A stretch of 25,972 nucleotides of DNA from an uncultured bacterium (GCA_964573245.1 CAZNJA010000016.1:1-25972), one strand, 5' to 3'. Shown: positions 2,020 to 25,119, counted from the stretch's first letter. A program made the numbers and translations. The notes: a model not told the origin generated them from the sequence alone.

Positions 2020-2856
2020 TTACTTAGTTATTCCTCTTTTTGATTCTCCTATGAATGTAATTATGCGTTGGACTTCTTCTTGACTCGGGAATCGTTCTTT
2101 CAATTTAGATAAGGCTTGGGATGTGTTGAGCCCGGCCCTGAATAAAATTTTGAAAACTTCCTTGAGTAGGTTAATTACTTCTTCGGGGAAATTGTTTCTT
2201 CTCAACCCCACGGAGTTTAGGTTGTATATTTTTAGCGGGTGTCCGTCCGCTTTTGCGTAGGGGAGAACATCCTTTACAACCTTGGAACAACCGCCGATGA
2301 TAGAAAGTGTCCCGATATTTACAAATTGATGAACCCCTACAAGTCCGCCTAAAATCGCGTTGTCTTCTATGTTTACATGCCCGCCCAGTGCGGCAGCATT
2401 TGCCATTACGACACCGTTCCCAAGTCGGCAGTTGTGTGCGACATGCGAGTAAGCCATAAGATAATTATTATCTCCCAAAACAGTTGCCTTACCCTCTTCT
2501 GTTGACCTGTTTATCATCACGTATTCTCTGATCACGTTATTATTGCCTATTTTGAGATATGTTTTTTCGCCTTTGTATTTAAAATCCTGTGGCGGAGTGC
2601 CTAAAACAACTCCTTTGGAAATATAGCAATTCTTGCCTATTGTAGTTTCTCCTTCAATAAAAACATTGGGCTCAATTTTTGTATTTTCACCGATAATTAC
2701 GTTTTTTTCAATAGTGGTATATGGTCCTATTTCCACCCCCTTGCCCAAATTCGCATTTTTATGAACTACAGATGTAGGATGAATTTTTACCCCCACCTGC
2801 TTACTCCTACGAGAAGCTGGCGGGTGTCCTTTTTGGGTCATGGATATGTCAACCAT
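2020..2856 (-). CDS. lpxA: Acyl-ACP--UDP-N-acetylglucosamine O-acyltransferase LpxA (start uncertain: 2856, 2841 or GTG at 2796)
   Basis: Hexapeptide repeats, PQDFKY, IREYVMINR, SHVAHNC, VHQF and LNSVGLRR. Confidence 0.96.
   Translation of the reverse strand: MVDISMTQKGHPPASRRSKQVGVKIHPTSVVHKNANLGKGVEIGPYTTIEKNVIIGENTKIEPNVFIEGETTIGKNCYISKGVVLGTPPQDFKYKGEKTYLKIGNNNVIREYVMINRSTEEGKATVLGDNNYLMAYSHVAHNCRLGNGVVMANAAALGGHVNIEDNAILGGLVGVHQFVNIGTLSIIGGCSKVVKDVLPYAKADGHPLKIYNLNSVGLRRNNFPEEVINLLKEVFKILFRAGLNTSQALSKLKERFPSQEEVQRIITFIGESKRGITK
2792..2824. repeat. GC-rich imperfect palindrome (family A) at the lpxA 5' end
   Basis: CCCACCTGCTTACTCCTACGAGAAGCTGGCGGG, 33 nt; arms resemble those of 22175-22213. 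Confidence 0.7.
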
Positions 2857-2922
2857 TTAATGGTTTTTCCTTTCGTGGTTAAAAAGTCGCTTATTTCGGC
2901 AAACGATGTTGAGCGTTGCTGT

Positions 2923-4260
2923 TTATTTTTTGTCAACCAAGGAAAACATAAAATCTGCTTCAGCAACTTTTGTATCTTCTACAGTAGCAGAAGCGTGAAC
3001 TTTCCCTGTTTTTTGCTTAAGTTTTTGTATTTCGACTTCTATCAGCAATTGGTCGCCGGGGACCACGGGTTTTCTAAATTTTGCATTTTCTATTACTGTA
3101 AAAAACGGCAATTTCCCCTCGCTTCCAGTTTTACTCAATAAAAGTACGCCAGCGACTTGAGCCATGGTTTCTAATGTTAGAACGGCTGGCATTATAGGAA
3201 ATTCAGGGAAATGCCCTTGGAAAAATTCTTCTCCACCTGTAACTGATTTAATGCCTACCGCCCGCTTCTTGCCAAGCGAAAGAATCCTGTCCACAAATAG
3301 GAAAGGATACCTATGCGGTAGTATCTTTTTGATATCCTTTAAATCCATTACCGCCCCCATATTTCCTCCTCTCTGCCTTGACTCGCCGTTTTCAGCAAGA
3401 CAAGTTTCAAATATTTTTTTTGCCATTTTTATGTTTAAATCATGGCCGCTCTTCATGCCTATGATATGGGTGTTTCTCAAATGCTTTCCACTTAAATAGA
3501 GGTCTCCGATTGCATCCAGCGCTTTATGACGCGCAATTTCATTGGGAAACCTCAAATCATCATTTAAAATTTTATCCTTGTCTATTACAAGTGCGTTTTC
3601 TAAGCTTCCTCCTTTTATCAAACCGTTTTCTTTTAACGCATTCACTTCTTCAAGTAAACAGAATGTCCTTGCCGGAGCAATTTGCTTTGCAAATGTTTCA
3701 CTGCCTTCAAAAGGCAGCGAACAGATGTTCCCTATTGAGTTCTCGCTTTTGCATCCCGCAAAACTTTCAGGGAATTCAAAAGTATATGTGACATTTCTTG
3801 AATGAGAAGGAAGCAAAATAAGGTAAGAATCATTTTGGGGATTTGAAACTATGAGAGGATAGTTGGGGCTAAAAGTTTGTTTTTTTCTATCGTAGAATTT
3901 TTTCTCTGCTTTTAGCAGAATGTCTGTCCAGGATCTCGCGCTCCCGTCCAAAATAGGAGGTTCACAGTTGTCTATTGCTATAAAAAGATTATCAACCCCG
4001 ACACCGGCGATTGCCGCCATCACATGCTCAATTGTGCAAACTTCGGCGCCATCTTTTTCTAAAGCAGTAGAGCGCTTTCTAGAATTTGCATAATCAACCT
4101 TTGCGGGAATTCTGGGCTTTCCCTTAAGGTCTTTTCTAATGAAAACTATCCCGCAATTTTCGGGCGCGGGTTTAAAAGTGAGGGTTGTACTTTTCCCCGT
4201 GTGAAGACCTATGCCTTTGATAGAAACTTCCTTATTGATGCTACACTGAAATTCTTCCAT
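2923..4260 (-). CDS. lpxC-fabZ: Bifunctional LpxC deacetylase / FabZ 3-hydroxyacyl-ACP dehydratase
   Basis: LpxC motifs GIGLHTG, TIEH, EPPILDGS, APARTF, HKALD..GDL and KSGH. FabZ motifs LPHRYPFL and FQGHFP..PIMP in the last ~145 aa. Confidence 0.96.
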   Translation of the reverse strand: MEEFQCSINKEVSIKGIGLHTGKSTTLTFKPAPENCGIVFIRKDLKGKPRIPAKVDYANSRKRSTALEKDGAEVCTIEHVMAAIAGVGVDNLFIAIDNCEPPILDGSARSWTDILLKAEKKFYDRKKQTFSPNYPLIVSNPQNDSYLILLPSHSRNVTYTFEFPESFAGCKSENSIGNICSLPFEGSETFAKQIAPARTFCLLEEVNALKENGLIKGGSLENALVIDKDKILNDDLRFPNEIARHKALDAIGDLYLSGKHLRNTHIIGMKSGHDLNIKMAKKIFETCLAENGESRQRGGNMGAVMDLKDIKKILPHRYPFLFVDRILSLGKKRAVGIKSVTGGEEFFQGHFPEFPIMPAVLTLETMAQVAGVLLLSKTGSEGKLPFFTVIENAKFRKPVVPGDQLLIEVEIQKLKQKTGKVHASATVEDTKVAEADFMFSLVDKK

Positions 4261-4271
4261 TGTTTTTAGTA

Positions 4272-4904
4272 CTACTCTTTGCCGTTTTTGTTTACGTAAT
4301 CTATTATTTCTTGGGTAAGGTCAAAACGCGTGTCAGAGAAGATAAGTTCGTTTTGGTCAAAAATCATAGCGTAACCTTTTTCTTTCCCGTATTCGGAAAT
4401 TTTCAATCTTAACTCTTCTATCAACTTGTCTATCGCTTGCCTTCTCTCGCTGTCTATTTTTGAGTTAAACTCTTGAATTTTCCTGGCTATTTGCTTTTTT
4501 AATTCTTCAATTTCCTTGTCTAAAACCTCTTTTTCCTTTTCAGACAGAATCCCGGAATTAAGTTTTTTTTCGAGTTCAGATATTTTATCCCTGTCCACAT
4601 TAATTTCTTCCTGCAATTCGCGCCCTTTTTCTTTTAACTTTTTGTCTTCCAGTTTCGTTTGCGAATAAGAATGATAAATTGCCAAAAAGTCCGCAAAGCC
4701 CGTTTTGTTTTCTATTCTTGCTTCGTTGCTTTGAGAAACGGATATGCTGTCAGGCTGTTTTCCGTTCGGCGGCACAGGCTCGGAAGGATTTGCTGCTTGC
4801 AGCAACGCTATGACTGTCCCCGAACACAAAACCAACGCTGAAAAAAACAACAATTTTAAAAAATCACTTCTCTTTAGAAAACAAATTTTATTTTTAATAC
4901 CCAT
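4272..4904 (-). CDS. skp: OmpH/Skp periplasmic chaperone
   Basis: Hydrophobic signal segment, long charged coiled coil, C-terminal KGYAMIFD...DLTQEII; directly follows bamA. Confidence 0.85.
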   Translation of the reverse strand: MGIKNKICFLKRSDFLKLLFFSALVLCSGTVIALLQAANPSEPVPPNGKQPDSISVSQSNEARIENKTGFADFLAIYHSYSQTKLEDKKLKEKGRELQEEINVDRDKISELEKKLNSGILSEKEKEVLDKEIEELKKQIARKIQEFNSKIDSERRQAIDKLIEELRLKISEYGKEKGYAMIFDQNELIFSDTRFDLTQEIIDYVNKNGKE

Positions 4905-4993
4905 CTTAAACTATCTCCTTTGTTTGGTGATAAATAAAAATGAATCTCTCCAATTAAAGTGCTAGTTAAAAGACAAGAACTTGTGCTCTCCGA

Positions 4994-7372
4994 TTAGAAA
5001 GAGTACCCCATCGAGAAATGCAGCCTGCCTTTATTGTCCTCTATTCCGTATCCATAATCTAAATTAACAGGGCCGATAGGAGTTTGCATTCTTAACCCAA
5101 CTCCAAATCCCGAGAAAAAACCGTTGAATTCTATTTCGTCGGGTTCTTCCCACGCGTTCCCGGTATCATAAAACAATGCGCCTCGTATGACTCTTTTCCA
5201 GATTGGAAAGGTATATTCGGCGTTGGCAACCAAAAAGGACTTGCCTCCTATAGGATTATCGTCTTCGTCTTGAGGACCAACGCTTCTTTCCGCGTACCCC
5301 CTTATAGTATCACTTCCACCAATGAAGAAGCGCTCATTTATGGGGACGTTGTCCGAATCGCCAAACTCTTTGGCAATTCCGGCCCTTAAACGGAAAGATA
5401 AAACATGCTCGAATTCTTCTTTTTTAACAATAGGCAAAAACCAGGCCCCATCTACCATGTGTTTCGTAAAATTCCTGTCTCCACCTAGGAAACCGCCCGC
5501 ATATTCCGTTGCCACGGTTCCCACGAAACCCCGAGTCGGAATCATGACATTGTCTCTGGTGTCTCTAACAAGCCCAACTGTTAAGCTGGAAGTGGCAAAT
5601 TTGCCTTCTTCGTCTTTTATGGCATCGCTGGCATTCGAAGAAACATCAGATATTTTAACATTTTCATATTTATAAATTGTGTTTAAACGGACATAGTCAG
5701 TAAGTCTTTTGCCAATTCTTACATTGCCGCCAGTATTTCTCTGGTCATAAGCTGTCCACTCGCGTGTCCTGTCGTAGATATCGAAGCCTACAGATAAAGG
5801 ATACCCCAAGAAATAGGGTTCCGTAAAACTCAATATATATTCTCCCGATAGCGCACCGAACCTTGCTCTGGCTCTAATTTTCTGCCCGCCTCCAGTAAAA
5901 TAAGGGGGGTTTCCTATATCAAAATTGTTTTGTTCAAGTTGAATAAACCCCACAAGGTCTTCAATGCTGGAATAACCCACCCCGAAAGTGAGCGAGCCTG
6001 TCTTGGCTTCTTCGACTTCAAAAACGAGGTCTCGCAACTCAGGTGTATCCGTAGGCTCAGTATACACTTTTACATCGCTAAAATATCCCAAATTGTAAAG
6101 CTTTTCTCTTGACCTTCTTATTTTATCTCCGTCAAACGCATCTCCCGGTTTAATTGTCAGTTCTCGGCGTATTACATTGTCCTTAGTTTTGGTGTTTCCC
6201 GCCATCCTTATAAGACGCACATAGGTTTTGGGGCCTTCGTTGATGCGATATATTGTTTTGACTTCTTTGTTCTCTTTATCTATGGAGGGTTCGTCCCAGA
6301 TTTGCGTAATGATATAGCCTTTTTGGGCGTAAAGCTTTCTTATAATGCCTATTTCTTCCGCAACTGCGTAAGGATTATAGGGGTTGCCTTCTTTGTTTTT
6401 GAGTTTATTAAGCAATTCTTCGTCTTCAAATAATGTGTTTCCCGAAACATTAATTTCTTTGACTGTATAAATATCTCCTTCGTCAATTTCTATGGTAATA
6501 AAGAGAAGCCTGCCTTCGTGTGTATATTCTAAATCGTAATCTTTTATCTTGGCATCCAAATAGCCAAAGGATTGGCAAATTGTAACTATCTTTTTAAGGT
6601 CTCTTTCAAATTCCTCCTTGCCAAAAATACCTCTTCTGAAAAATTGGGCTGTTTTGGTTTCCATTTGAGCCCGTATCTGCCTCTCAGGGACGTGCTTATT
6701 TCCCAATATCTTTATTTCTTTTACCCGTGTCCGCGGCCCTTCTATGATATCAAGCACAATTGATACTACTTTTTCCTCTTCCCTTATTTTTACCTCAGGA
6801 GTAATTTGAGTTCTATAGTACCCTTTTTTTTCATATAATTCGTCTATCCTTTTAATGTCTTCCGCCAAATCCTTCTCCAAGTAAATGTCACCAGCCGAAA
6901 CGGTCATAACGCGGTCTATTTCTTCTTCCTTTATCGCGCGGCTGCCTTTAATCTCAATTGCCTCCACATAAGGTTTTTCTTCAACTACATAAGTAATCTT
7001 GACGCCTGCCTCAAAGGGAATCGATTCAACCGATATATTCGAAAAATAGCCGAGTGCATAAATGTTTTTTATATCCTGAGATATAGTTTTCTGCGAAAGG
7101 GCCTCCCCTTCTTTCGTCTTTATTCTTGAAAGGACTATCATCGTAGAAACTCTTTTGTTTCCTGAAACTTCTATTTTTTTGACTACCGAAGTAACTTCTT
7201 TTTGATCGTTTTCTGATTCCGCCACATTTGTCTGGTTTGAGTAAATCGGGGAAGCAGTTGATTCTTCGGCTAATATAGAACAAGAAGAAAAAACGGTTAT
7301 CAGCAATAGCATTGCAAAACTAATGGTTATAAAACTGCATGATAGTAACCTTTTGATATTTTTAATTCTCAT
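4994..7372 (-). CDS. bamA: Outer membrane protein assembly factor BamA (likely start ATG 7372, not the ORF start 7468)
   Basis: POTRA repeats (I.V.GN motifs, TKDNVIRRE), the loop-6 motif IRGY and a C-terminal aromatic signature (FSMGYSF); signal peptide follows MRIKNIKR. Confidence 0.96.
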   Translation of the reverse strand: MRIKNIKRLLSCSFITISFAMLLLITVFSSCSILAEESTASPIYSNQTNVAESENDQKEVTSVVKKIEVSGNKRVSTMIVLSRIKTKEGEALSQKTISQDIKNIYALGYFSNISVESIPFEAGVKITYVVEEKPYVEAIEIKGSRAIKEEEIDRVMTVSAGDIYLEKDLAEDIKRIDELYEKKGYYRTQITPEVKIREEEKVVSIVLDIIEGPRTRVKEIKILGNKHVPERQIRAQMETKTAQFFRRGIFGKEEFERDLKKIVTICQSFGYLDAKIKDYDLEYTHEGRLLFITIEIDEGDIYTVKEINVSGNTLFEDEELLNKLKNKEGNPYNPYAVAEEIGIIRKLYAQKGYIITQIWDEPSIDKENKEVKTIYRINEGPKTYVRLIRMAGNTKTKDNVIRRELTIKPGDAFDGDKIRRSREKLYNLGYFSDVKVYTEPTDTPELRDLVFEVEEAKTGSLTFGVGYSSIEDLVGFIQLEQNNFDIGNPPYFTGGGQKIRARARFGALSGEYILSFTEPYFLGYPLSVGFDIYDRTREWTAYDQRNTGGNVRIGKRLTDYVRLNTIYKYENVKISDVSSNASDAIKDEEGKFATSSLTVGLVRDTRDNVMIPTRGFVGTVATEYAGGFLGGDRNFTKHMVDGAWFLPIVKKEEFEHVLSFRLRAGIAKEFGDSDNVPINERFFIGGSDTIRGYAERSVGPQDEDDNPIGGKSFLVANAEYTFPIWKRVIRGALFYDTGNAWEEPDEIEFNGFFSGFGVGLRMQTPIGPVNLDYGYGIEDNKGRLHFSMGYSF

Positions 7373-8315
7373 TTGAAATTTTATCCTTATTAGTGTTTCC
7401 CAACTGCTCCGGTTTAGGAGGAGCGGAAGGGGGTGTTTTACGTTTAGTATCATTTGTAGCCAAAGCATCTAAGGGTTTAACATAAAATAACTTGAAAATT
7501 TTTAACAAAACTTGTTTCAAGTTCTTTCTGTGAACAACCATATCTATCATCCCATGTTCCAGCAAAAATTCTGCCTTTTGAAACTTGTCGGGCAATTTTT
7601 GTCTAACGGTTTGTTCGATTACTCTTGGGCCCGCAAAACCAATTAACGCGCCTGGTTCTGCGATAATTATGTCTGCCAAAAAAGCGAAAGAAGCAGAAAC
7701 CCCTCCTGTGGTAGGGTCGGTCAAAATAGAAACATAAGGCAACTTCTTTTTATTGTAAAGATTAAGCGCAGCAGAGGTTTTTACCATTTGCATGAGAGAT
7801 AAAATTCCTTCCTGCATCCTCGCACCGCCAGACGCAGAAACAATCACCAGGGGAAGTTCTTTTTCCGCCCCTCTTTCTATTAAACGGCATACTTTTTCCC
7901 CGACTACCGAAGCCATACTCCCGCCCAAAAACGAAAAGTTAAAAAAACCCACAGCGATGTTGTGATCCCCGATTTTTCCTTCTCCTGTGATAACGGCTTC
8001 TTTTAGCCCTGTTTTTTCCTGCGCTTCTTTGACTCGGTCGCTGTATTTTTGCTTGTCCTCAAACTTCAAAGGGTCAACCGGTTCCAAGGTTGAATCTGTT
8101 TCCTCAAAAGTGTTTTCTTGCAGTAACTGAGACAATCTCTCTTGCGCAGACAAGCGGAAATGGTAACCACATTTAGGGCATACCTTAAGATTCTTTAGTA
8201 ATTGTTCCGTATAAAGAATTCTTGAACACGCCGGGCATTTTGACCAAATACCTTCCGGGATACCTTTTCTCTTTTTAGGTTTTAATATATATTCTACGCT
8301 TCTTTTCCAGGCCAT
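7362..8315 (-). CDS. accD: Acetyl-CoA carboxylase carboxyltransferase beta subunit
   Basis: Zinc finger CPAC...CPKC, GGSM, SGGARMQEG..SLMQM, DPTTGGV and IGFAGPRVI; SD GAGGAG upstream. Confidence 0.97.
   Translation of the reverse strand: MAWKRSVEYILKPKKRKGIPEGIWSKCPACSRILYTEQLLKNLKVCPKCGYHFRLSAQERLSQLLQENTFEETDSTLEPVDPLKFEDKQKYSDRVKEAQEKTGLKEAVITGEGKIGDHNIAVGFFNFSFLGGSMASVVGEKVCRLIERGAEKELPLVIVSASGGARMQEGILSLMQMVKTSAALNLYNKKKLPYVSILTDPTTGGVSASFAFLADIIIAEPGALIGFAGPRVIEQTVRQKLPDKFQKAEFLLEHGMIDMVVHRKNLKQVLLKIFKLFYVKPLDALATNDTKRKTPPSAPPKPEQLGNTNKDKISNEN
7399..7431. repeat. Palindrome (family A-like) in the accD 3' extension
   Basis: CCCAACTGCTCC-GGTTTAGGA-GGAGCGGAAGGG; the CTGCTCC/GGAGCGG core is shared with 11073-11113. 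Confidence 0.55.
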
Positions 8316-8511: not shown

Positions 8512-8515
8512 ATAC

Positions 8516-8599: not shown

Positions 8600-8902
8600 T
8601 TAGAATCCAACCGCTTCTTTCATTATCTTCTTAACCGTATCTTTAGCAAAATTTTTTCTGGTTTTATTTTGCGGTAGGACCAAAACAGCAGGCGGGAACC
8701 TTTTGATAATTTTTAAAAACGCTCCCTGATTTCCATAAACTATGTCTTCCGCAATAATTACAAGCCCATAGCCTTGTGCACTTAAATCTTCGATTAAATC
8801 TTCGGCTTCCTGCAAACTTTTGCAATCAAATAGGCTAAATCCGAGCGATTTTAACGGCAAAAGTTCTTTTTTATCGCCTAAAGCTGCAAGTTTAGTTCCC
8901 AT
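8600..8902 (-). CDS. V/A-type ATPase subunit F
   Basis: 100 aa; KLAALGD...LGF N-terminus, VLVLP, and C-terminal EAVGF; follows subunit C. Confidence 0.88.
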   Translation of the reverse strand: MGTKLAALGDKKELLPLKSLGFSLFDCKSLQEAEDLIEDLSAQGYGLVIIAEDIVYGNQGAFLKIIKRFPPAVLVLPQNKTRKNFAKDTVKKIMKEAVGF

Positions 8903-11050: not shown

Positions 11051-13090
11051 TTACCTCCCTCCGGTTCTACGACCCGCCCGCTCCGACGTGACGTCGGAGC
11101 AGGTAGAGGTCGGAGACCTTTTAACTTTTGATATGATATATTTACTTTCTTGAGAAAGCGGCTGAAAAGCTTCTCCGCCTCCCTGGAAAAAGTATGAGAA
11201 AAATTCTACAAACTGCAGTCTTGTAGTATGAACAAAAGCCCCCAATGTATTAATAGCAATATTAAATAGATGCCCTACAATAATAATAAATAAAGCAAGT
11301 AAAATGCCCAAATAAGGAAGCTGTTCTAAGGCAATTCCTGCAAGAATATTTATGACAAGCGCAATAATACTGGTTGCCAACCCCAATGCCATAAGGCGGG
11401 AGTAGGAGAGAATATTACCCAGAAAATCTTTGGATTTCCATATAAATCCTCCCAGGCTAATCAATAGATTTAAAAGGGGGTTTCGGCCTTTCTTAAACAA
11501 TGAGGCAGCTACCATTATTCCTGCTCCTGCAAGCATTATAAAAAGAGCCGTCTGATTAAATTGTGGGGATAGAAAGCCCTGTTTTGAAATGATCCATAGG
11601 ATAACTCCGGGCAAGATAATAAGATAAGAAAGCTGGTCAGCAAACGCATCGGCGAAATTCCTGCTTCTTAATTGTTCATACATTTCAACGCCTATCCCAA
11701 GAAGTATATGAACAACACCGAAGGATAAGGCAAGAATAAAAAGTTTCATAAGATTATCTAAAGGATTGATTAAGATTAACATCTTAAGAACTTGAGGAAG
11801 TTTTGCAATCTCTATCCCAAACCAACCTCCGGTAACTATTCCCCAAAAAATTGTTGCAATTCCCCCAAGCAAAAAAAGTCGAAAGAACTCTCTACCTTCA
11901 ACTCCCACCTTTATTTTCTTCATAGCAAAAAGGGTAAGGGCGATAAGAACGAATCCATAACCAACATCAGTTAGGCATAACCCGAAGAATACGAAGAAAA
12001 AAGGTGCTACAAAGCCACTGGGGTCAACTTCTCCAAAATGGGGAAGACCAAAAAGTTTGGTTATTCCCTGGAAAGGTCTAACTAAAGCGGGATTTTTTAT
12101 TTCAATAGGCGGAAATTCTCCCTTGTCGGGGTCAATGTTTTCAATGTGGGTAGAAGGAAAGTCACTTTGCAAAGTTGCTTTTATTTTGTTCATATCGTCT
12201 TTCCTTACCCATCCCTGCAATACGAAAGTTCTTTGCGACTCGCACAAATGTTCTTTGGCTTTTTCTCTTTGCAACCGAAATAAATACCAATCGTGAACCA
12301 TCATCAATTTATCTTTATATTGAAGCAATTGTTTGATTTTCCTAAAAAGCTTTTCTTTTTCATCAAGTAGGGATGCTATTTGCTTTTTATCTGAATCTAT
12401 CGCGTTAGAAGGCAACTTGTCGCATAAAGAAAGATTTACAGTTTCAAATCCTTCTTCCTTTAACAAAGATGAGATTTCGTCATCATTTTCTTTCCAATAC
12501 ATCAATAGCAGGCATGCAAAATCGGCATCTATAGATATAATTTCCGCACAAGTTGCATCTATTTCACTCAATTTGTTGATTAGTGAGTCGTGTTTTTCTT
12601 TTGGACCTTTTAAGAAAAGAGAACTTGTAGTTTGAGTTTCTTTCGCCTCACAAGGAGACCATGATAAATTTTTAAAAGGGGTAAGAAGGGCAATATCATT
12701 ATGCAGAAACGATATTTTTTCGCTAATTTTTGAAATTTTCTCTTTTATATCGTTAACATTTTTTACTATTTCTTGATAACTAAAATTGCGCACGGTTTTC
12801 TCAAATTCTTTTTCATCCGTTTCCACCCTCGCCGGGAAAAAATTTTCAACAAGCGCCTTATTTTCATTAAATTGTTCCAGAAAGGAAATAGTGGATTCTA
12901 TGTGAGCGATTTCTTCGCCGATATGCCGCTCTTCGCTGTCAGGGTCATGGCCTGAAAAATAATTGTCCAACGTGCCTTCTTCAAAACCTTTAAGATGGAT
13001 AAATTCGGATTTTTGTAATTGCCTAATCATCTTTTCCTTCTCTTCTTTTAGGCCGATTACCCTAATTTTCCGCATTTTTACTACAGACAT
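11051..13090 (-). CDS. ntpI: V/A-type ATPase subunit I (a)
   Basis: Soluble N-terminal half with LQGWV; membrane half with FFGLCLTDVGYG, SYSRLMALGLA (essential Arg) and RLQFVEFF. Confidence 0.96.
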   Translation of the reverse strand: MSVVKMRKIRVIGLKEEKEKMIRQLQKSEFIHLKGFEEGTLDNYFSGHDPDSEERHIGEEIAHIESTISFLEQFNENKALVENFFPARVETDEKEFEKTVRNFSYQEIVKNVNDIKEKISKISEKISFLHNDIALLTPFKNLSWSPCEAKETQTTSSLFLKGPKEKHDSLINKLSEIDATCAEIISIDADFACLLLMYWKENDDEISSLLKEEGFETVNLSLCDKLPSNAIDSDKKQIASLLDEKEKLFRKIKQLLQYKDKLMMVHDWYLFRLQREKAKEHLCESQRTFVLQGWVRKDDMNKIKATLQSDFPSTHIENIDPDKGEFPPIEIKNPALVRPFQGITKLFGLPHFGEVDPSGFVAPFFFVFFGLCLTDVGYGFVLIALTLFAMKKIKVGVEGREFFRLFLLGGIATIFWGIVTGGWFGIEIAKLPQVLKMLILINPLDNLMKLFILALSFGVVHILLGIGVEMYEQLRSRNFADAFADQLSYLIILPGVILWIISKQGFLSPQFNQTALFIMLAGAGIMVAASLFKKGRNPLLNLLISLGGFIWKSKDFLGNILSYSRLMALGLATSIIALVINILAGIALEQLPYLGILLALFIIIVGHLFNIAINTLGAFVHTTRLQFVEFFSYFFQGGGEAFQPLSQESKYIISKVKRSPTSTCSDVTSERAGRRTGGR
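11073..11113. repeat. GC-rich palindrome (family A) inside the ntpI 3' end
   Basis: CCCGCCCGCTCCGACG-TGA-CGTCGGAGCAGGTAGAGGTCGG; its reverse complement matches the ugd copy at 25/31 positions by manual alignment. Confidence 0.75.
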
Positions 13091-15081: not shown

Positions 15082-15228
15082 ATAGAAACCAGATGACAGC
15101 GGTCAGAAATACTGCTAATTTTGTCCTCTGTATTCTGTTTTCTGGGGTAAACCAGAACAAGTACGGTTTACCCCAGCCCTGAACCGTGATTTTTTAGAAA
15201 TCTCTGGTTCAAGGGCTGTCTTCTATTT
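15082..15228. repeat. Inverted heptamer array (family C) interrupted by a hairpin doublet
   Basis: CCAGATG ACAGCGG TCAGAAA ... TTTGTCC TCTGTAT TCTGTTT TCTG[insert]TCT TCTATTT. Confidence 0.65.
15142..15218. mobile_element. Hairpin-doublet MITE/REPIN-like element (family B-like)
   Basis: A perfect 12-bp stem CTGGGGTAAACC/GGTTTACCCCAG is followed directly by CCCTGAACC...GGTTCAAGGG (1-nt bulge); CTG is duplicated at both ends. Confidence 0.55.
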
Positions 15229-18884: not shown

Positions 18885-19008
18885 ACCTATGCACGTAGAA
18901 TAGAAGGAAGGCGGTTTGAACCAGGATCAAACGAAAGGATATGAAAGGTATATCGATTTTTACAAAAAATCTTACTCATCTTGCCTGTTCTTTATGGTTT
19001 ATTGGTGC

Positions 19009-19659: not shown

Positions 19660-19672
19660 TTTATCCTCCATT

Positions 19673-19771: not shown

Positions 19772-19775
19772 TTAA

Positions 19776-21125
19776 TTATCCTACCAAAACATCTGCTTCG
19801 GAATATTTAAACTTTGACGGTTTTGGTTTACCAACAAGCGAAAAACCAATAGCCAACGGTCCCATTCTTCCGACCAACATTGTAATGGATATAACTATCT
19901 TGCCAATATTACTAAGAGACGAAGTTACTCCAGTGGATAAACCCACGTTACTCAAAGCGGATACTACCTCAAATACAACCTGCAGAAAAGCGGCTTTTTC
20001 TGTGAATACCAATATTCCCGTAGCAAGAACTACCCATAAAACAGCAATAGCACTTATTGCAAAAACTTTATTTACTATCTGTGCAGGGATTCTTCTTTTA
20101 AAAAGGTTGATATCTCCTTTCCCAGTCAAAAGAGAGAAAAGAAACATCAATATTACCCCAAAAGCCACTGTTTTAATACCAGCTCCTGTTCCTCCCGGAG
20201 ATGCTCCTACAAACATTAATAATACTATTACAAAAAGGCTTGGGGAGCTCATTGCTCTGATGTTAATTGTGTTGAACCCCGTTGTAGTGGAAGCAGAGAT
20301 TGATTGAAAAGCAGAACTCAATAGTCTTTCGTTTAAAGAATACGTTTGATACCCCTTTTCTGACACAAAAATAATCACCGCTCCAAATAGGATAAGAGTC
20401 ATTGTTATCAACAAAACGAATTTACTGTGGACGGTTAGAGCAAGCCGTTTCTTAGTTTCGATGGCTTTCTTGCCTGAAGCGTAAATATCATATAATACGA
20501 AAAACCCAATGGCGCCCGCGATACAAACAAAATTGATAATTAAATTTATAGCAGTGTTTCCCCGATATGGACTGAAACTTGTCGAAAAAAGACTAAAACC
20601 CGCAGTGCAGAAAGCCGAAACCGAGTGAAAAATCCCGTGCAATAGCGCTCTCTTGAAAGGGAAAAAATTAGTCCAATAGAGAGTCAAGAATGTTGCTCCG
20701 ATAAGCTCAATAACAAAAGTGAAAACAATCACCACCTTTACGAATTTAAACATATTCATTGAACTGGGATGTGCTAAAGATTCGTTCAGAAGAACTCTGC
20801 CGTTAAAAGATATCCGTCTGCCTACACCCAAAATGATTAAGGCAATAAAAATCATATACCCCAGACCGCAAACTTGAATGAGAGTAAGAATAACCATTTG
20901 ACCAAAAAAAGAGTAAAAACTGCCTGTATCTGCAACTATCAACCCTGTAGTTGTAACTGCGGAAGTGGAGGTAAATAAAACATCGACCAATGGTTGGGGA
21001 ATGTTTCCGGATGTAGCAATGGGCAGAGAAAGCAAAATCATTCCCACCACAATCATCAAAATAAACCCCATTAGCAGGGTTTGGGCAGGCGTAATCGTTT
21101 TCCAAAATTTTTGAGAATTTATCAT
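19776..21125 (-). CDS. ktrB: KtrB/TrkH potassium uptake membrane subunit
   Basis: Four pore-loop motifs each with the filter Gly (SAVTTTGL, SAFCTAGF, SASTTTGF, SALSNVGL), plus GASPGGTGAGIK and GRMGPL. Confidence 0.95.
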   Translation of the reverse strand: MINSQKFWKTITPAQTLLMGFILMIVVGMILLSLPIATSGNIPQPLVDVLFTSTSAVTTTGLIVADTGSFYSFFGQMVILTLIQVCGLGYMIFIALIILGVGRRISFNGRVLLNESLAHPSSMNMFKFVKVVIVFTFVIELIGATFLTLYWTNFFPFKRALLHGIFHSVSAFCTAGFSLFSTSFSPYRGNTAINLIINFVCIAGAIGFFVLYDIYASGKKAIETKKRLALTVHSKFVLLITMTLILFGAVIIFVSEKGYQTYSLNERLLSSAFQSISASTTTGFNTINIRAMSSPSLFVIVLLMFVGASPGGTGAGIKTVAFGVILMFLFSLLTGKGDINLFKRRIPAQIVNKVFAISAIAVLWVVLATGILVFTEKAAFLQVVFEVVSALSNVGLSTGVTSSLSNIGKIVISITMLVGRMGPLAIGFSLVGKPKPSKFKYSEADVLVG

Positions 21126-21141
21126 GGTATTAAGTAATAAT

Positions 21142-21180
21142 ACAGAATACAGATATAAAAATATCTTCTGTTATCTATTT
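21142..21180. repeat. Short inverted heptamer array just 3' of tRNA-Pro
   Basis: ACAGAAT ACAGATA ... TCTGTTA TCTATTT; homologous to 1088-1145. Confidence 0.55.
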
Positions 21181-21187
21181 TTTTTAT

Positions 21188-21266
21188 TGGTCGGGGCGAC
21201 TGGATTCGAACCAGCGACCTCTTGAACCCCATTCAAGCGCGCTAAACCAAACTGCGCCACGCCCCG
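21188..21266 (-). tRNA. tRNA-Pro(GGG) with encoded CCA
   Basis: CGGGGCG-TG-GCGC-AGTTTGGTTTA-GCGC-G-CTTGA-ATGGGGT-TCAAG-AGGTC-GCTGG-TTCGAAT-CCAGT-CGCCCCG-ACCA forms a full cloverleaf, 79 nt. Confidence 0.98.
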
Positions 21267-21273
21267 ATGCAAT

Positions 21274-21449
21274 ATTAAAAATCAAAAATCAAATATCAAA
21301 AATTACAAACAAAATATTCTTTTTTGAGAAAATTTTAAATTTTAATATGTCATTTTGCCCCGAGAAATCCAGAGGATTTCCGGGACTCAGTCCCTGAAAT
21401 TGTTTCACGATTTCTAGGGGCGTTTTGATTTTTGAATTTTGCATTTCTA
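21274..21449. repeat. AT-rich inverted heptamer array (ATCAAAA/TTTTGAT, family C)
   Basis: ATTAAAA ATCAAAA ATCAAAT ATCAAAA ... TTTTG[insert]TTTTGAT TTTTGAA TTTTGCA. Confidence 0.75.
21357..21421. mobile_element. Hairpin-doublet MITE/REPIN-like element (family B)
   Basis: GCCCCGAGAAATCC-AGA-GGATTTCCGGG, ACTCAGT spacer, CCCTGAAATTG-TTTCA-CGATTTCTAGGGGC; 21389-21419 is the exact reverse complement of 25886-25916. Confidence 0.75.
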
Positions 21450-21451
21450 TG

Positions 21452-21772
21452 TTATCTATTTATTATTTCAAATATCTCTTCAAGTTCTTTTTTTACAAGA
21501 TTGACCGTGTTTTTTATGTTTTCCGAATTTTCTTCCTTTTGCGTTCCTTTTATCTTTTTTTTGACACCTGCTGCTTTATATTTTTTGTCATATATTAAAT
21601 CTTTTATCTTTTTTATCAACTCTAAATCAGTATTTTTGTATCTTCTTTTACCGCGAGAGTCCTTTTCGGGACGGACAAGGCCATATTCTTTTTCCCAATA
21701 ACGGATGGTGTAGGGAGGAACTCCGGCATATTCGCTTGCTTCTCGAATAGAATAGAATAATTTTGAATTCAT
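21452..21772 (-). CDS. MerR-family HTH transcriptional regulator
   Basis: YSIREASEYAGV...TIRYWEKE...RRY; the merR-like gene followed by tRNA-Pro(GGG) is a familiar synteny. Confidence 0.9.
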   Translation of the reverse strand: MNSKLFYSIREASEYAGVPPYTIRYWEKEYGLVRPEKDSRGKRRYKNTDLELIKKIKDLIYDKKYKAAGVKKKIKGTQKEENSENIKNTVNLVKKELEEIFEIINR

Positions 21773-21795
21773 ACCAACCCGCCTTTCTGCTGCAA

Positions 21796-23130
21796 TTAAC
21801 CCCTTCCAACGGGAATATACTTAAAGCCCATACGTTTCATCTTGTTTGGGTCATATAAATTGCGCCCATCCGCTATTATCGGCCTCTTGAGCAAAGATTT
21901 GATTTTTAACAAGTCCGGGTTTCTAAAATCCTTCCATTCGGTAAGAATAAGCAGGGCATCTGCCCCTTTTATCGCTTCATAAGGAGAATTGACGTAAATA
22001 ATACTGGGAAATATTTTCTTCATATTATCCATAGTTTTAGGGTCAAACGCGCGAATATTTTTCACTTTTCTCTTCAGAAGTTCTTCTATAATATAGATAG
22101 CCGGCGCCTCTCTTATATCATCCGTTTCAGGCTTAAAGGACAACCCCCACACTGCAATTGTTTTGCCTGCAAATCCCGCCTGTTTGCTACGATGTAGCAT
22201 CGGAGTGGGCGGGTCTTCAAGGGCTTTTTCTATCCGCTTGATAAAGTGTGCTCTGCGTTCTGTGTTTATATTGCGGACTTCTTCAAGCAATTTAAAATTG
22301 CAACCGCTTTTTTTACCTATGTGAATGAAAGCTGACATGTCTTTTGGGAAACACGAACCGCCGTAACCGATACCCGCTTTCAAAAAGTCCTCTCCGATAC
22401 GTTTATCAAGCCCTATACCTTTTGCGACTTTTACGACATCTGCACCTGTTTTTTCGCATAGATTCGCCAACATGTTCGCAAACGATATTTTCGTTGCAAG
22501 GAACGAATTTGATGCGTGCTTTATAAGTTCTGCGGATTTTATGTCAGTTATAAGAATTGGTGCGTTAAGTGGCGAATAAAGTTGAACGAGTTCGGATGCC
22601 GCTCTCTGCGAAGATACGCCGATTATAATTCTATCGGGATGAATAAAATCATGTATGGCGGCTCCTTCCCTTAAAAATTCCGGGTTGGATGCCACATCGA
22701 ACCGGACTCCTTTTGGGGCCTGCTTATTTAAAGTTTTTAAAATCCATTCGCCTGTTTCAACCGGGACTGTAGACTTTTCCACCACGAGTTTATACCCGTT
22801 AAGCGCCTTTGCAATTTGAGAAGCGGTTTTTTTGACTGCGGACATATCAACTTCGCCTGTTTTGCGAGATGGTGTGCTAACACATATAAATATTATTTGC
22901 GAAGCCAAGACAGCACCAATAGTATCCCCTGAAAACGATAGCCGACCTTCAATATGATTAGTATACACCAACTTGTCCAATCCAGGTTCGTAAAATGGGA
23001 TGTTGCCCCCTTTTAGCACTTGCAACTTCTTCTTGTCATGGTCTACGCATATCACATCGTGACCCAACTCTGCAAAACATGCTCCTGTAACCAAACCAAC
23101 ATGTCCTGCTCCAATAACTGCTATTTTCAT
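21796..23130 (-). CDS. ugd: UDP-glucose/GDP-mannose 6-dehydrogenase
   Basis: GAGHVG, EKSTVP, NPEFLREG, catalytic GYGGSCFPKD and WGLSFKPETDDIRE. Confidence 0.95.
   Translation of the reverse strand: MKIAVIGAGHVGLVTGACFAELGHDVICVDHDKKKLQVLKGGNIPFYEPGLDKLVYTNHIEGRLSFSGDTIGAVLASQIIFICVSTPSRKTGEVDMSAVKKTASQIAKALNGYKLVVEKSTVPVETGEWILKTLNKQAPKGVRFDVASNPEFLREGAAIHDFIHPDRIIIGVSSQRAASELVQLYSPLNAPILITDIKSAELIKHASNSFLATKISFANMLANLCEKTGADVVKVAKGIGLDKRIGEDFLKAGIGYGGSCFPKDMSAFIHIGKKSGCNFKLLEEVRNINTERRAHFIKRIEKALEDPPTPMLHRSKQAGFAGKTIAVWGLSFKPETDDIREAPAIYIIEELLKRKVKNIRAFDPKTMDNMKKIFPSIIYVNSPYEAIKGADALLILTEWKDFRNPDLLKIKSLLKRPIIADGRNLYDPNKMKRMGFKYIPVGRG
22175..22213. repeat. GC-rich palindrome (family A) inserted in frame in ugd
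   Basis: CCCGCCTGTTTGCTACGATG-TAG-CATCGGAGTGGGCGGG, 39 nt, encoding PPTPMLHRSKQAG. Confidence 0.8.
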
Positions 23131-23212
23131 TTATTCACTCCAATGGTGTCAGACTTTTCTGCCCCAATGTATAGCCGGAACACCCCGACTTAGCGTTGGG
23201 CATTGTCTGTCT

Positions 23213-24556
23213 TTATAAAATATACCTCGACAAATTTTTGTCTTTTGCTATATCTTTTAATTTATCCCTAACATATTTTCTATTGATGTTAATTTTTTTA
23301 CCTTTCAGTTCCGGGCCCTGAAAAGAAATGTCTTCCACAACTTTTTCCATTATTGTATGAAGTCTTCTTGCTCCTATATTCTCAGTTTGCTCATTTACGG
23401 TTTGCGCAATAGAGGATAATTCATCCACAGCATCCGTCGCAAATTTTACATTTATTCCCTCAGTCTTAAGAAGCGCCGTATATTGTTTAATCAAAGAATT
23501 ATCCGGCTCTATCAATATTCTCTTGAGATCCTCTCTGCTTAGACTTTTAAGTTCCACTCTTATCGGAAATCTGCCCTGTAGTTCCGGAATTAAATCAGAA
23601 GGCTTCTTTGCATGAAACGCGCCTGCGGCAATGAATAAAATATGGTCGGTCTTCGCCATGCCGTATTTTGTGGTAACCGTCGTGCCCTCTATGATAGGCA
23701 AAAGGTCTCTTTGAACGCCTTCTCTGGAAATATCAGGGCCATGTGCTGATTCTCTGCCTGCTACTTTATCTATTTCGTCAATAAAAATAATACCCGAATT
23801 TTCCGCTCTTAATATACCTTCTTTAATAACAGCATCTATATCAAGCAGTTTATCTACTTCTTCGGCTATGAGAATTCTCCGTGCCTCTGCCACAGTTGCT
23901 TTTCTGTTTTTCTTCTGCGGAGACATTGCCTTACCAAACATCTCCTGGAAATTTATTCCAAATTCTTCTATCCCCGAAGAAGAGAAAATTTCAATTAACG
24001 GCATGGCGCTTTTTTTAACTTCAAGCTCAACTATTCTGTCATCTAATTTGCCGTCCAAAAGTTGCGCTTTCATTTTCCCGCGCACCCTTTTTCTCTGCGC
24101 TTCCGCTTCCTTATCTTCTGTCGAATTCGCCTTGCGCAGAGGTGGGATAAGTAAGTCCAAAATTCTTTCTTCAGCTAATTCCTTAGCTTTAGCTTCGACT
24201 TCTTTTCTTTTTTCGGCTTTTACCATATTGGCAGATATATCCACCAGATCGCGCACCATCGATTCTACGTCTCTGCCGACATATCCGACTTCGGTATATT
24301 TTGACGCTTCTACTTTTAAGAACGGCGCTTGGGCTAAACGCGCCAATCTGCGAGCGATCTCGGTTTTTCCTATACCGGTCGACCCAATCATAATAATATT
24401 TTTCGGAGCAACCTCGTCGCGTAAATCCTGCGACAGTTTTTGTCTCCTCCAACGGTTACGCAAAGCAATAGCCACACATTTTTTCGCTTCGTTTTGTCCG
24501 ATTATATATTTGTCCAACGACGCGACAACTTCTCTTGGAGTAAGAACTTCGCTCAT
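23213..24556 (-). CDS. hslU: ATP-dependent protease ATPase subunit HslU
   Basis: LTPRE, Walker A GSTGIGKT, pore motif [28 protein letters not shown] and C-terminal LSRYIL. Confidence 0.98.
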
Positions 24557-25077
24557 AATTCTGCCACCTCAATCTCTTTATTGGTATAAATACAAACGGT
24601 AGAAGCTGTAAGAATCGCTTCCTTTACAATATCTTTTGCCTTGAGATTAGAATGTTTAATCAAGACTCTTGCCGCAACTAAAGCGTAAGAGCCACCCGAG
24701 CCAATAGCAATGATTCCGTCATCCGGCTCCATTACGTCTCCGTTACCCGAAAGCAAAAAACTCTTTTCCTTGTCCGCTACGACAAGTAGCGCTTCAAGTT
24801 TTCTCAAGACCCTATCTGTCCTCCAGTCTTTTGCCAATTCCAAAGCAGCTCTTTTTAAATTTCCGCTGAATGCTTCTAATTTTGCCTCAAATCTCTCAAA
24901 TAAAGTAAAAGCGTCTGCTGTTGAACCTGCAAATCCCGCAAGTATCTTATTACCATACATTTTTCGTATTTTCTTGGCTTTATGCTTCAAAATTGTATGT
25001 TGCAAAGTGACCTGACCGTCTCCGCCAATAGCCACCTCACCCTTGTGTCTTACTATTACAATCGTTGTGGCATGCAT
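24553..25077 (-). CDS. hslV: ATP-dependent protease peptidase subunit HslV
   Basis: MHATTI (Thr nucleophile), [24 protein letters not shown] and AIGSGG; SD GGAGGA. Confidence 0.98.
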
Positions 25078-25089
25078 TATTTAATCCTC

Positions 25090-25119
25090 CCCGCCTGCCT
25101 TACAGAGGCAAACAATTGG
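25090..25119. repeat. Family A palindrome remnant in the hslV 5' UTR
   Basis: Reverse complement TGTTTGCC-TCTGTAA-GGCAGGCGGG parallels the ugd copy TGTTTGCT...AGTGGGCGGG. Confidence 0.55.

What the first reader, a model, noticed from the sequence alone, without database searches (positions are those of the whole stretch)
2792..25119. Candidate system: a palindromic repeat family colonising reading frames of core genes
Seen: five related copies in 26 kb (2792, 7399, 11073, 22175, 25090), with consensus roughly CCCRCC-TGYTTRCTMC-[variable hairpin]-GRAGY-KGGCGGG, a constant asymmetric internal loop, and both orientations. Four lie inside ORFs, and three measure 33, 33 and 39 nt by my boundaries. 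Known: Rickettsia palindromic elements insert in frame into proteins, and REP sequences are mobilised by HUH-type RAYT transposases. Inference: this is a much shorter RPE-like family that creates new peptide segments; no mobiliser is visible in the window. I cannot tell from the sequence alone whether the family is already described.
Basis: partly seen in the sequence, partly recalled or inferred. Interest (0 to 1): 0.8.

Follow-up and report, generated by a model that had tools for sequence, protein, structure and literature searches.

The report
Tiny hairpin repeats inside core genes
A family of very short GC-rich hairpin DNA repeats is scattered through this small uncultured bacterial genome and sits, in frame, inside many housekeeping genes, adding small floppy loops to their proteins; this kind of repeat is already known from Rickettsia and some other bacteria.

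Summary
The finding is real, but the window holds only old, decayed copies. Genome-wide the family is CCCGCCTGC-[6-27 nt]-GCGGGCAGG, 24-45 nt long. There are 50 confident copies and 72 loose loci, against 4 hits for a backwards control.

Of the five window copies:
- Three are backed by indels against relatives. UGDH has an exact 39-nt/13-codon insert in a disordered loop. LpxA has an N-terminal insert behind a conserved start codon. The V-ATPase I tail has a 27-nt unit nested in an older hairpin.
- Two stay weak: the AccD tail and the hslV leader.

Across the genome, 21 of 50 confident copies lie in coding sequence. Hosts include RpoBC, RadA (three inserts), Mfd and UvrC. All 21 are multiples of three, against 20 of 29 outside genes. 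31 of 50 are stop-free in all six frames. Inserts have precise ends and no target duplication.

No mobiliser was found. Y1/RAYT transposases do not track the repeat: the richest relative has none.

I read it as a REP/RPE-like non-autonomous mobile hairpin, a new family of a known kind. This scan has already reported the same habit in other Omnitrophota-like genomes, including another contig of this genome. Interest is moderate.

The parts
22175..22213 (+). Copy 4: 39-nt unit of the 39-nt subfamily (3 arm mismatches), read on the minus strand as PPTPMLHRSKQAG inside UDP-glucose 6-dehydrogenase
   Evidence: Exact 39-nt/13-codon gap in G001, G002, G004 and five more distant orthologues. G003 has a decayed 33-nt unit at the same site. 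12-residue gap in PDB 4a7p. Model pLDDT <50 at residues 309-316, between helix 280-303 and strand 324-328. Best covariance-model hit in the window, 16.2 bits. Present with no skipped form in contigs of 4 other runs.
2792..2824 (+). Copy 1: 33-nt unit (3 arm mismatches), read on the minus strand as HPPASRRSKQVG in the N-terminal region of LpxA
   Evidence: ATG and the purine-rich stretch before it are conserved in G000, G001 and G003. G001 is 33-36 nt shorter here. G003 has a decayed copy at the same site. Translation.
11077..11103 (-). Copy 3, inner unit: 27 nt with the core GCTCCGACGTNACGTCGGAGC, in the C-terminal tail of V-ATPase subunit I
   Evidence: Present in G000 and G002, and exactly absent (27 nt) in G001. 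The core is an over-represented hairpin module: 37 sites in the genome, and GCTCCGACGT occurs 12+9 times against 0.25 expected.
11066..11114 (.). Outer hairpin (..CTACG...CGTAG..) that carries the 27-nt unit in its loop
   Evidence: G001 has the outer hairpin alone. Either a nested insertion in G000/G002 or a precise loss in G001.
7399..7431 (+). Copy 2: doubtful 33-nt relic (5 arm mismatches), read as TPPSAPPKPEQLG in the C-terminal tail of AccD
   Evidence: The tail is hypervariable in all four relatives, so no empty site can be defined. Covariance model 7.6 bits, E 6.8.
25090..25114 (+). Copy 5: 5' arm CCCGCCTGC plus a small hairpin, with no 3' arm, in the hslV leader
   Evidence: A segment of about 26 nt is shared by G000, G002 and G003 and absent in G001, between the RBS and a TATAAT-like box. 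Not found by the model.
21796..23130 (-). Host gene: UDP-glucose 6-dehydrogenase
   Evidence: Pfam PF03721, PF00984, PF03720. PDB 4a7p at E 4e-114.
2020..2856 (-). Host gene: LpxA
   Evidence: Pfam Hexapep and Acetyltransf_11.
11051..13090 (-). Host gene: V-type ATPase subunit I
   Evidence: Pfam V_ATPase_I. The stop codon lies 3 nt before the subunit K start.
7362..8315 (-). Host gene: AccD. Its last 11 nt overlap the likely BamA start at 7372.
   Evidence: Pfam Carboxyl_trans and Zn_ribbon_ACC. Translation.

Best explanation
The stretches are copies of a non-autonomous mobile DNA hairpin of the REP/RPE kind.

The unit has two fixed 9-nt arms, CCCGCCTGC and GCGGGCAGG. They pair imperfectly, always with one T.G pair and one C.A mismatch or bulged A. 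Between them lies a variable middle, either a short loop or a further hairpin module. This gives subfamilies of 24, 25, 26, 27, 33, 39 and 45 nt.

Shown:
- Copies are pasted with exact ends and no target duplication, mostly after an A.
- They occur in gene spacers and in coding sequence.
- They differ in presence or absence between species of one genus.

Inferred:
- Selection then filters them. In genes only 3n-long, stop-free copies survive, in disordered loops or at protein ends.
- There they are translated as Pro/Ala/Arg/Gly-rich segments (PAR..AGG, LPA..KQAG, PPAK..RAG).
- The window's copies are old. They are shared with G002 or G003 and their arms have decayed.
- The paste step probably acts on single-stranded DNA folded as a hairpin, as with HUH/Y1 enzymes. 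No such enzyme is tied to the family here, so the mobiliser is unknown.
For: Family:
- 106 raw hits against 4 in the backwards control.
- 50 confident copies.
- Arms invariant in 20 of 20 aligned copies.

Spread:
- Exact arms in 7 of 31 relatives searched (G000 28, G001 46, G002 17, G003 3, G006 8, G007 14, G010 9). The backwards control gave 0 in all but one genome.
- 6 of 9 genomes of the phylum set.
- Identical 24-nt units and multi-copy contigs in IMG/VR.

Empty sites with exact 3n gaps:
- UGDH 39 nt.
- V-ATPase I 27 nt and LpxA 33-36 nt.
- RadA 33, 33 and 39 nt, absent in 5 of 5 relatives.
- Mur ligase 39 nt and 60 nt.
- RpoBC 27 nt.
- Element ends are exact and there is no duplication (ATA|AAA, AAA|GAR, AGA|GAC).

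Filter:
- 21 of 21 in-gene copies are 3n against 20 of 29 outside (Fisher p 0.006). Lengths 25 and 26 occur only outside genes (8 of 8).
- 31 of 50 are open in all six frames, against 6.9% of random genomic segments.
- In-gene share is 21 of 50 against 89% coding density.

Loop position: pLDDT <50 at UGDH residues 309-316.

Recency: 11 of the 21 in-gene copies have perfect arms. Those checked (in RadA and the Mur ligase) lie in genes whose orthologues lack them; the RpoBC copy, with one arm mismatch, also lacks a counterpart in G003-G005.

Real in the population: four other runs carry the UGDH insert.
Against: - No mobiliser was found. The only Y1_Tnp match in G000 is weak (32.7 bits, profile positions 9-86 of 121). 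It sits in a 436-aa membrane protein whose HUH position, by eye, has no histidines.
- Y1_Tnp is in 5 of 7 repeat carriers and 16 of 24 non-carriers. G001 has the most copies and has none.
- 0 of 5 multi-copy viral records have Y1_Tnp.
- 11 ORFs beside clustered copies in G001 are all housekeeping genes.
- No GTAG or CGTC tag.
- Movement was not seen directly: contigs of four runs show only the filled UGDH site.
- Covariation is thin. 7 of 11 pairs never vary and only 2 show changes on both sides. With the arms fixed, the middles fold better than shuffles (at most 5 of 200 shuffles as stable) in 8 of 42 distinct sequences, mostly the 27- to 45-nt classes.
- Window copies score at noise level with the model, except copy 4.
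- Translation of the inserts is inferred, not shown.
- Gene calls come from a crude caller of my own.
Confidence: 0.7

Rival explanations
1. The hairpins are functional cis-elements: a binding site for a conserved host protein, or an RNA hairpin that stabilises, pauses or ends transcripts. They are kept by selection, and the copies inside genes are side effects or tune translation.
For: - Both arms, including the odd mismatch, are invariant in 20 of 20 aligned copies and identical in genomes of other families and another phylum-level group.
- Orientation is biased against the direction of transcription, 27 to 12 (p 0.02).
- Many copies sit just behind or before genes.
Against: - Sites are not conserved between species of one genus.
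- Older copies, those of the window, decay freely, including the mismatch.
- 21 of 50 copies lie inside coding sequence, where a terminator would be harmful.
- No run of T follows as a rule.
Confidence: 0.12
2. The copies spread without a dedicated transposase. Template switching, slippage or gene conversion between hairpins during replication or repair would do it, which also explains nested hairpins and reuse of the same sites.
For: - No mobiliser tracks the family.
- The same codon boundary carries different hairpins in different relatives: Mur ligase in G000 against G002, and RpoBC in G000 against G001/G002.
- Inner units sit in the loops of outer hairpins that relatives have alone.
- The module CCGACGTWACGTCGG is found inside several unrelated outer repeats.
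- Short direct repeats (CGGG) flank the 27-nt unit.
Against: - Clean insertions occur at sites with no earlier hairpin and no homology to the unit (RadA, Mur ligase site 1, RpoBC against G003).
- Identical units occur at many unlinked sites and in other phyla.
Confidence: 0.13
3. The window's stretches are not repeat copies at all. They are ordinary lineage-specific Pro/Ala/Gly-rich linker indels that look alike by chance.
For: - Covariance-model E-values are 1.6 to 6.8 for copies 1-3, and copy 5 is missed.
- The AccD tail is hypervariable in every relative.
- Loose hits with 3 mismatches include clear chance matches, such as 1253-1304 inside the conserved LpxI C domain.
Against: - Copy 4 aligns along all 39 nt to the canonical 39-nt unit and is an exact 39-nt indel.
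- Copy 3 holds the over-represented 21-nt module.
- Copy 1 matches the 33-nt class and is a 33-36 nt indel.
- Canonical copies do the same thing in 14 other genes.
Confidence: 0.05

Closest known systems
Intragenic REPs of the GTAG- and CGTC-tagged palindrome superfamilies (Di Nocera, De Gregorio, Rocco 2013, PMC3733652; abstract and passages read)
   Same: - 20-40 nt palindromic repeats in many copies.
- Mostly between genes, but in some species wholly inside ORFs.
- Often in DNA repair and replication genes, sometimes twice in one gene.
- Tolerated at protein ends or in linkers.
- CGTC repeats also lack a dedicated transposase.
   Different: - No GTAG or CGTC tag at either end (0-1 of 49 copies).
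- Different arm sequence.
- A much higher in-gene share here (21 of 50).
- Mostly single units, not dimers.
- The host phylum is not among those named in the passages I read.
Rickettsia palindromic elements (RPE; Ogata et al. 2000, seen only as summarised in PMC10969869, passages read)
   Same: Palindromic selfish DNA inserted in frame into unrelated housekeeping genes and read through as extra peptide. About half of copies lie in ORFs.
   Different: RPEs are about 100-150 bp, AT-richer and restricted to Rickettsia. These units are 24-45 nt, GC-rich in a 38% GC genome, and shared across phylum-level groups and viral contigs.
REP/RAYT systems and REPINs (Nunvar 2010, Bertels and Rainey 2011: recalled; RAYT passages of PMC3733652 read)
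   Same: Short imperfect hairpins with conserved mismatches, no target duplication and subfamilies within one genome.
   Different: - No RAYT gene flanked by the repeat.
- No link between Y1_Tnp and repeat presence.
- Units are mostly singletons, not inverted doublets.
MITEs (review PMC10969869, passages read)
   Same: Non-autonomous, small, with inverted ends. In-frame fusions with host ORFs are known.
   Different: MITEs are usually 100-500 bp and AT-rich, with terminal inverted repeats of an IS and target-site duplications. Here the units are under 50 nt and GC-rich, with no duplication and no parent IS.

Membership tests
REP (repetitive extragenic palindrome), broad sense | Imperfect palindrome of 20-40 nt in many dispersed copies | tested here: met
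   50 confident copies of 24-45 nt, 72 loose loci, against 4 control hits. 93% of aligned pair cells form a standard pair.
REP (repetitive extragenic palindrome), broad sense | Predominantly extragenic | tested here: not met
   21 of 50 confident copies lie inside coding sequence by my crude gene calls. Eight such sites were confirmed as inserts against orthologues: three in the window and five elsewhere. A sixth site elsewhere (a second 33-nt insert in RadA) carries a different arm variant.
GTAG- or CGTC-tagged REP superfamilies (PMC3733652) | GTAG or CGTC tetranucleotide at one end of the palindrome | tested here: not met
   GTAG, CTAC, CGTC or GACG within 8 nt of either end in 0 or 1 of 49 copies each. 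The outer hairpin at 11066-11114 does carry CTACG/CGTAG, but it is a different element.
REP/RAYT (REPtron) | A Y1 HUH transposase gene flanked by the repeat in the same genome | tested here: not met
   One weak Y1_Tnp match in G000, not flanked by the repeat; the nearest copy is 4 kb away. G001 has 46 copies and no match. Genes between clustered copies are housekeeping. G000 is 93% complete, so a missing gene is possible.
Rickettsia palindromic elements | 100-150 bp element families of Rickettsia encoding a conserved peptide | tested here: not met
   Units are 24-45 nt. Relatives of the host genome bear record titles naming Omnitrophota/Ratteibacteria. In-frame behaviour is shared.
MITE | Target-site duplication and terminal inverted repeats matching a parent IS | tested here: not met
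   No duplication at 5 clean junctions. No parent IS was sought beyond Y1_Tnp.
Intrinsic terminator | GC hairpin followed by a run of T, behind genes | tested here: not met
   Downstream positions are only mildly T-rich: 12-29 of 49 at positions +1 to +6. 21 of 50 copies are inside genes. A few single copies do have a T run.

The most novel reading that the evidence does not exclude
An unknown machinery that is not a Y1 transposase, and that may ride on phages, pastes tiny hairpins into single-stranded DNA, preferably into exposed loops of earlier hairpins. It shuffles hairpin modules among unrelated repeats. In this way it keeps making new surface loops in essential proteins (RNA polymerase, RadA, UvrC, Mfd) across Omnitrophota-like phyla and their viruses. 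If so, this is a general and still active engine of protein-loop innovation.
Probability: 0.15. Interest if true: 0.8.

Novelty: new member of a known kind. Interest (0 to 1): 0.45.

Why it matters
This shows, with empty-site controls, that a 1.5-Mb genome tolerates dozens of 8-15-residue insertions in essential enzymes. It also shows a simple filter that decides which copies stay: length 3n, no stops, loops or protein ends.

For annotation:
- Odd Pro/Ala/Gly-rich loops and N- or C-terminal extensions in these candidate phyla are often repeat-derived.
- Contig breaks often fall in repeat-rich spacers.

For mobile-DNA biology, it is a REP-like family with no tag and no RAYT that is shared across phylum-level groups and viral contigs. 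That makes 'what moves REPs that have no RAYT' testable by phyletic profiling.

The kind itself (intragenic REPs, RPEs) is known, and this scan has met it repeatedly, so the gain is incremental.

Tried and rejected
- RAYT as mobiliser: searched in G000, 30 relatives and 5 viral records. No association.
- REPtron-like genes: the ORFs at six clusters of copies in G001 (11 scanned) are CarA, an isocitrate/isopropylmalate dehydrogenase, a nitroreductase, UvrC, Sua5, RpiB, an aminotransferase, GAPDH, PFK, CoaBC and ValRS.
- Fold test of the middles with arms fixed: median z -0.58. Only the longer classes are clearly better than shuffles.
- Strand bias against GC skew: 30 to 20, not significant.
- Population polymorphism of the UGDH insert: contigs of runs X2-X5 all carry it, with no joint across it. 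These are contigs, not reads, so rare forms would be missed.
- Print search:
  - 'Omnitrophota' with 'palindromic': 10 papers hold both terms. None of the 9 listed looked relevant by title and abstract start.
  - The four 9-mers: 43 papers hold at least two. The 15 listed are unrelated by title.
  - Figures and supplements were not searchable, and Additional file 3 of PMC3733652 (list of intragenic REPs) was not opened.
- AccD tail: no empty site could be defined.
- Loose hit 1253-1304 in LpxI, and the 5'-arm-only hits at 8688 and 16825, were treated as chance.
- ARAGORN, also with introns allowed, did not call the partial tRNA-Val copies on contig C14.
Full report
**Setting**

The window is the whole of contig C16 of a 1.456-Mb, 110-contig assembly with 38% GC. 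CheckM-type completeness is 93%.

Almost all genes lie on the minus strand. In order they are a MocA-type oxidoreductase, LpxI, LpxA, an LpxC-FabZ fusion, Skp, BamA, AccD, V-type ATPase subunits F, C, E, K and I, ParB, ParA, a YhdP-like protein, YidC, YidD, TrkA, TrkH, a MerR regulator, UDP-glucose 6-dehydrogenase (UGDH), HslU, HslV and an FMN reductase. Close relatives carry record titles naming Candidatus Omnitrophota or Ratteibacteria.

**The observation**

Their mutual likeness is modest. The real pattern shows only at genome scale.

- CCCGCC and GGCGGG occur 346 and 348 times.
- The 9-mers CCCGCCTGC and GCGGGCAGG occur 34 (+24 reverse) and 38 (+30) times, against about 2.7 expected.
- Listing their contexts gives one family: CCCGCCTGC, a variable middle, then GCGGGCAGG.
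- With up to 2 mismatches per arm (3 in all) and 4-40 nt between the arms, there are 106 raw hits. The arms read backwards give 4, and swapped arms give 22.
- After merging overlaps there are 72 loci.
- I treat the 50 loci with at most 2 mismatches and at most 45 nt as confident. The 3-mismatch, long-spacer tail clearly holds chance hits.
- A covariance model built from 20 copies finds 38 matches at E<=0.01. Twenty of these are its own training set.

The arms never vary. They pair with one T.G pair and one C.A mismatch, or equivalently a bulged A. Two pairing registers compete, CCCGCC with GGCGGG and CCTGC with GCAGG. Covariation is therefore thin. Of 11 pairs, 7 never vary and 2 show changes on both sides, although 0 of 500 shuffles reach the observed score. 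Subfamilies have 24, 25, 26, 27, 33, 39 and 45 nt.

**The window copies**

None is canonical. With the model:

| Place | Bits | E-value (window) | Note |
|---|---|---|---|
| 22175-22213 | 16.2 | 0.086 | copy 4 |
| 11077-11103 | 10.5 | 1.6 | copy 3 |
| 2796-2824 | 10.0 | 2 | copy 1, matched on the wrong strand |
| 7399-7430 | 7.6 | 6.8 | copy 2 |
| 25090 | - | - | copy 5, absent from the list |

(All.) Comparison with relatives G001-G004 (same genus or family, synteny kept) decides more.

- **Copy 4 (UGDH).**
  - G000 has exactly 39 nt (13 codons) that G001, G002, G004, G005, G006, G009, G010 and G012 lack.
  - G003 has a decayed 33-nt unit at the same place.
  - The unit aligns along its whole length with the canonical 39-nt class.
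  - PDB 4a7p shows a 12-residue gap opposite DPPTPMLHRSKQ.
  - In an AlphaFold2 model (mean pLDDT 83) the insert lies between helix 280-303 and strand 324-328, with pLDDT below 50 at residues 309-316.
- **Copy 1 (LpxA).**
  - The ATG and the purine-rich stretch before it are conserved in G000, G001 and G003, so the repeat lies inside the coding region.
  - G001 is 33-36 nt shorter here.
  - G003 again has a decayed copy at the same site.
- **Copy 3 (V-ATPase I tail).**
  - G000 and G002 share a 27-nt unit that G001 lacks exactly.
  - The flanks form an outer hairpin (CTACG..CGTAG), which G001 has alone.
  - The reading frame runs on to a stop 3 nt before the next gene in both forms.
- **Copy 2 (AccD tail).** The tail differs in all relatives, so nothing can be said.
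- **Copy 5.**
  - It has only the 5' arm.
  - A segment of about 26 nt in the hslV leader is shared with G002 and G003 and missing in G001.

**Genome-wide behaviour**

I used a crude codon-usage gene caller of my own, which gave 1326 genes and 89% coding density.

- 21 of the 50 confident copies lie in coding sequence. Of these, 16 are more than 25 codons from either end.
- The hosts of those 16, scanned with Pfam (14 genes), are:
  - a fused RpoB-RpoC
  - RadA
  - a Mur ligase
  - UvrC
  - Mfd
  - a transketolase-like enzyme
  - V-ATPase subunit A
  - anthranilate synthase I
  - the GTPase Der/EngA
  - an ABC ATPase
  - a PurE-like protein
  - a radical SAM enzyme
  - a DHOD-B type electron-transfer subunit
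  - an amidase
- Orthologue alignments confirm inserts:
  - RadA has 33, 33 and 39 nt, absent in 5 of 5 relatives.
  - The Mur ligase has 39 nt and a 60-nt composite.
  - RpoBC has 27 nt.
- The junctions are clean, with the element's exact ends and no duplicated target (ATA|AAA, AAA|GAR, AGA|GAC).
- The same boundary is reused. G002 carries a different 39-42 nt hairpin at the Mur ligase site. G001 and G002 carry a different 36-nt insert at the RpoBC site. G003 carries only the outer 33 nt of the 60-nt composite.

**The filter**

- All 21 in-gene copies are multiples of three, against 20 of 29 elsewhere (Fisher p 0.0065). On distinct sequences it is 20 of 20 against 17 of 25 (p 0.0056).
- The 25- and 26-nt subfamilies (8 copies) occur only outside genes.
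- 31 of 50 copies are stop-free in all six frames, against 6.9% of random genomic pieces of the same lengths.
- Copies are still depleted in genes: 42% against 89% coding density.
- 12 of the 21 in-gene copies are read in one orientation and phase, giving P-A-R...A-G-G.
- Over genes and one-directional spacers, the orientation runs against transcription 27 to 12 (p 0.02).

**Age**

- 11 of the 21 in-gene copies have perfect arms. Those checked, in RadA and the Mur ligase, lie in genes whose orthologues lack them. The RpoBC copy, with one arm mismatch, also has no counterpart in G003-G005. DNA identity across the window's syntenic region is about 71-82%. I infer that these copies postdate the species splits.
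- The window copies are shared with G002 or G003 and are decayed, so they are older.
- Contigs of four other runs carry the UGDH insert unchanged, and none skips it.

**Spread**

- Exact arms occur in 7 of 31 relatives searched: all four genomes of the genus, two of another family of the class, and G010 of a different phylum-level group. The backwards control found almost nothing.
- They occur in 6 of 9 genomes of the phylum set.
- Of the 88 matches I printed, 70 are 3n long.
- Several equal the 24-nt unit, or belong to a 36-nt class with several copies per contig.
- Others lie in 70-80% GC DNA and may be chance; I ran no control for this collection.

**Mobiliser**

None was found.

- G000 has one weak Y1_Tnp match (32.7 bits, profile positions 9-86 of 121).
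- The match is the N-terminus of a 436-aa protein with a membrane helix.
- Where IS200/RAYT enzymes carry His-hydrophobic-His (placement recalled, not aligned) it reads D-K-V-Y.
- Y1_Tnp occurs in 5 of 7 carriers and 16 of 24 non-carriers. G001, with 46 exact copies on 10 contigs, has none.
- Five multi-copy viral records have none.
- Genes between clustered copies in G001 are housekeeping, and three more of them (PFK, CoaBC, ValRS) carry copies inside.

**Mechanism**

Shown:
- Dispersed identical units.
- Precise 3n indels between close relatives.
- No target duplication.
- The length and stop filter.
- Loop or terminal positions in proteins.

Inferred:
- Copy-and-paste of a single-stranded hairpin. 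The fixed mismatch and the strand asymmetry of the arms suggest recognition by a protein, as with HUH enzymes.
- Translation of the inserts.

Open:
- The enzyme.
- Whether nested hairpins arise by insertion into loops or by loss of the inner unit.

**Comparison with what is known**

- Di Nocera et al. 2013 (PMC3733652; abstract and passages read) describe 20-40 bp REPs inside genes in several species. Many are in repair genes, sometimes twice per gene. They also note that CGTC repeats lack a dedicated transposase.
- RPEs are the classic in-frame case (PMC10969869, passages read).
- This family has neither tag and no RAYT link, so it is not a member of those named families. It behaves like them.
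- I found no paper on it.
- Earlier notes of this scan report the same habit in other Omnitrophota genomes and on another contig of this genome. I took from them the lead to PMC3733652. I confirmed independently that the same loops carry different repeats in different relatives.

**Verdict**

This is a new member of a known kind, of moderate interest.

Noticed in passing
window 59-142: A 25-nt inverted repeat built from heptamer-like units (CTAGATWC / GATACTAG) in the spacer at the contig start. The same heptamer runs flank many intergenic copies of the hairpin elsewhere, for example C13, C48 and C59. GATACTAGAT occurs 21+17 times against 0.7 expected. Bases 1-55 look by eye like part of a tRNA on the minus strand cut by the contig end; this was not tested.
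   Followed up: partly
window 25825-25972: A third repeat family of nested palindromes (CCCTCTGGAATC..GATTCCGAGG, CCCTAGAAAT..ATTTCTAGGG, CCGGAAATTC..GAATTTCTCGGG) at the contig end. The last 100 nt of my query matched dozens of places in G001-G004 at 76-94% identity. Similar units flank hairpin copies on C11 and C70.
   Followed up: partly
genome-wide (none found in the window): A second abundant palindromic family, TCTCTAACGGGGT ... ACCCCGTTAGAGA, with about 45 copies of the core per strand against 0.4-0.7 expected. It is sometimes wrapped around the CCCGCCTGC hairpin (C68, C42).
   Followed up: no
G000 37 sites; window 11083-11097: The hairpin module CCGACGTWACGTCGG sits inside several unrelated outer repeats: the CCCGCCTGC arms, the CCCCGTTAGA family and CCCTGAACC..GGTTCAGGG. 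This suggests modules are exchanged or nested.
   Followed up: partly
G000 C14:12780-13620 (L228): Tandem partial copies of tRNA-Val in which the anticodon arm is replaced by the CCGACGTAACGTCGG hairpin, next to one intact tRNA-Val(GAC) and a 3' half further on. ARAGORN calls only the intact gene. Part of the stretch is masked with N.
   Followed up: partly
G000 C12:23859-25169 (L001 1429-2739): A 436-aa ORF with a weak Y1_Tnp-like N-terminal domain that seems to lack the HUH histidines, a membrane helix, and a C-terminal domain resembling the 202-aa protein encoded just upstream.
   Followed up: no
G000 C8:25476-33464 (L030): RpoB and RpoC are fused in one 2662-aa reading frame. The open frames are of similar size in G001-G003: 2691, 2673 and 2652 aa.
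   Followed up: no
window 2923-4260: LpxC and FabZ are fused in one 445-aa protein, followed by LpxA and LpxI.
   Followed up: no
window 15142-15176: A perfect 12-nt inverted repeat, CTGGGGTAAACC / GGTTTACCCCAG, with an 11-nt loop at the ParA start region.
   Followed up: no
G001/G002 AccD tail (L032, L044): The AccD tails of G001 and G002 hold a different small hairpin with CTAC/GTAG-like ends (..CTACCCGCCAGGATCCGGTAG..), so this tail has taken up repeats more than once.
   Followed up: no
G001 C11:449232-450555: G001 has about 1.3 kb between hslV and the FMN reductase gene that G000 lacks.
   Followed up: no
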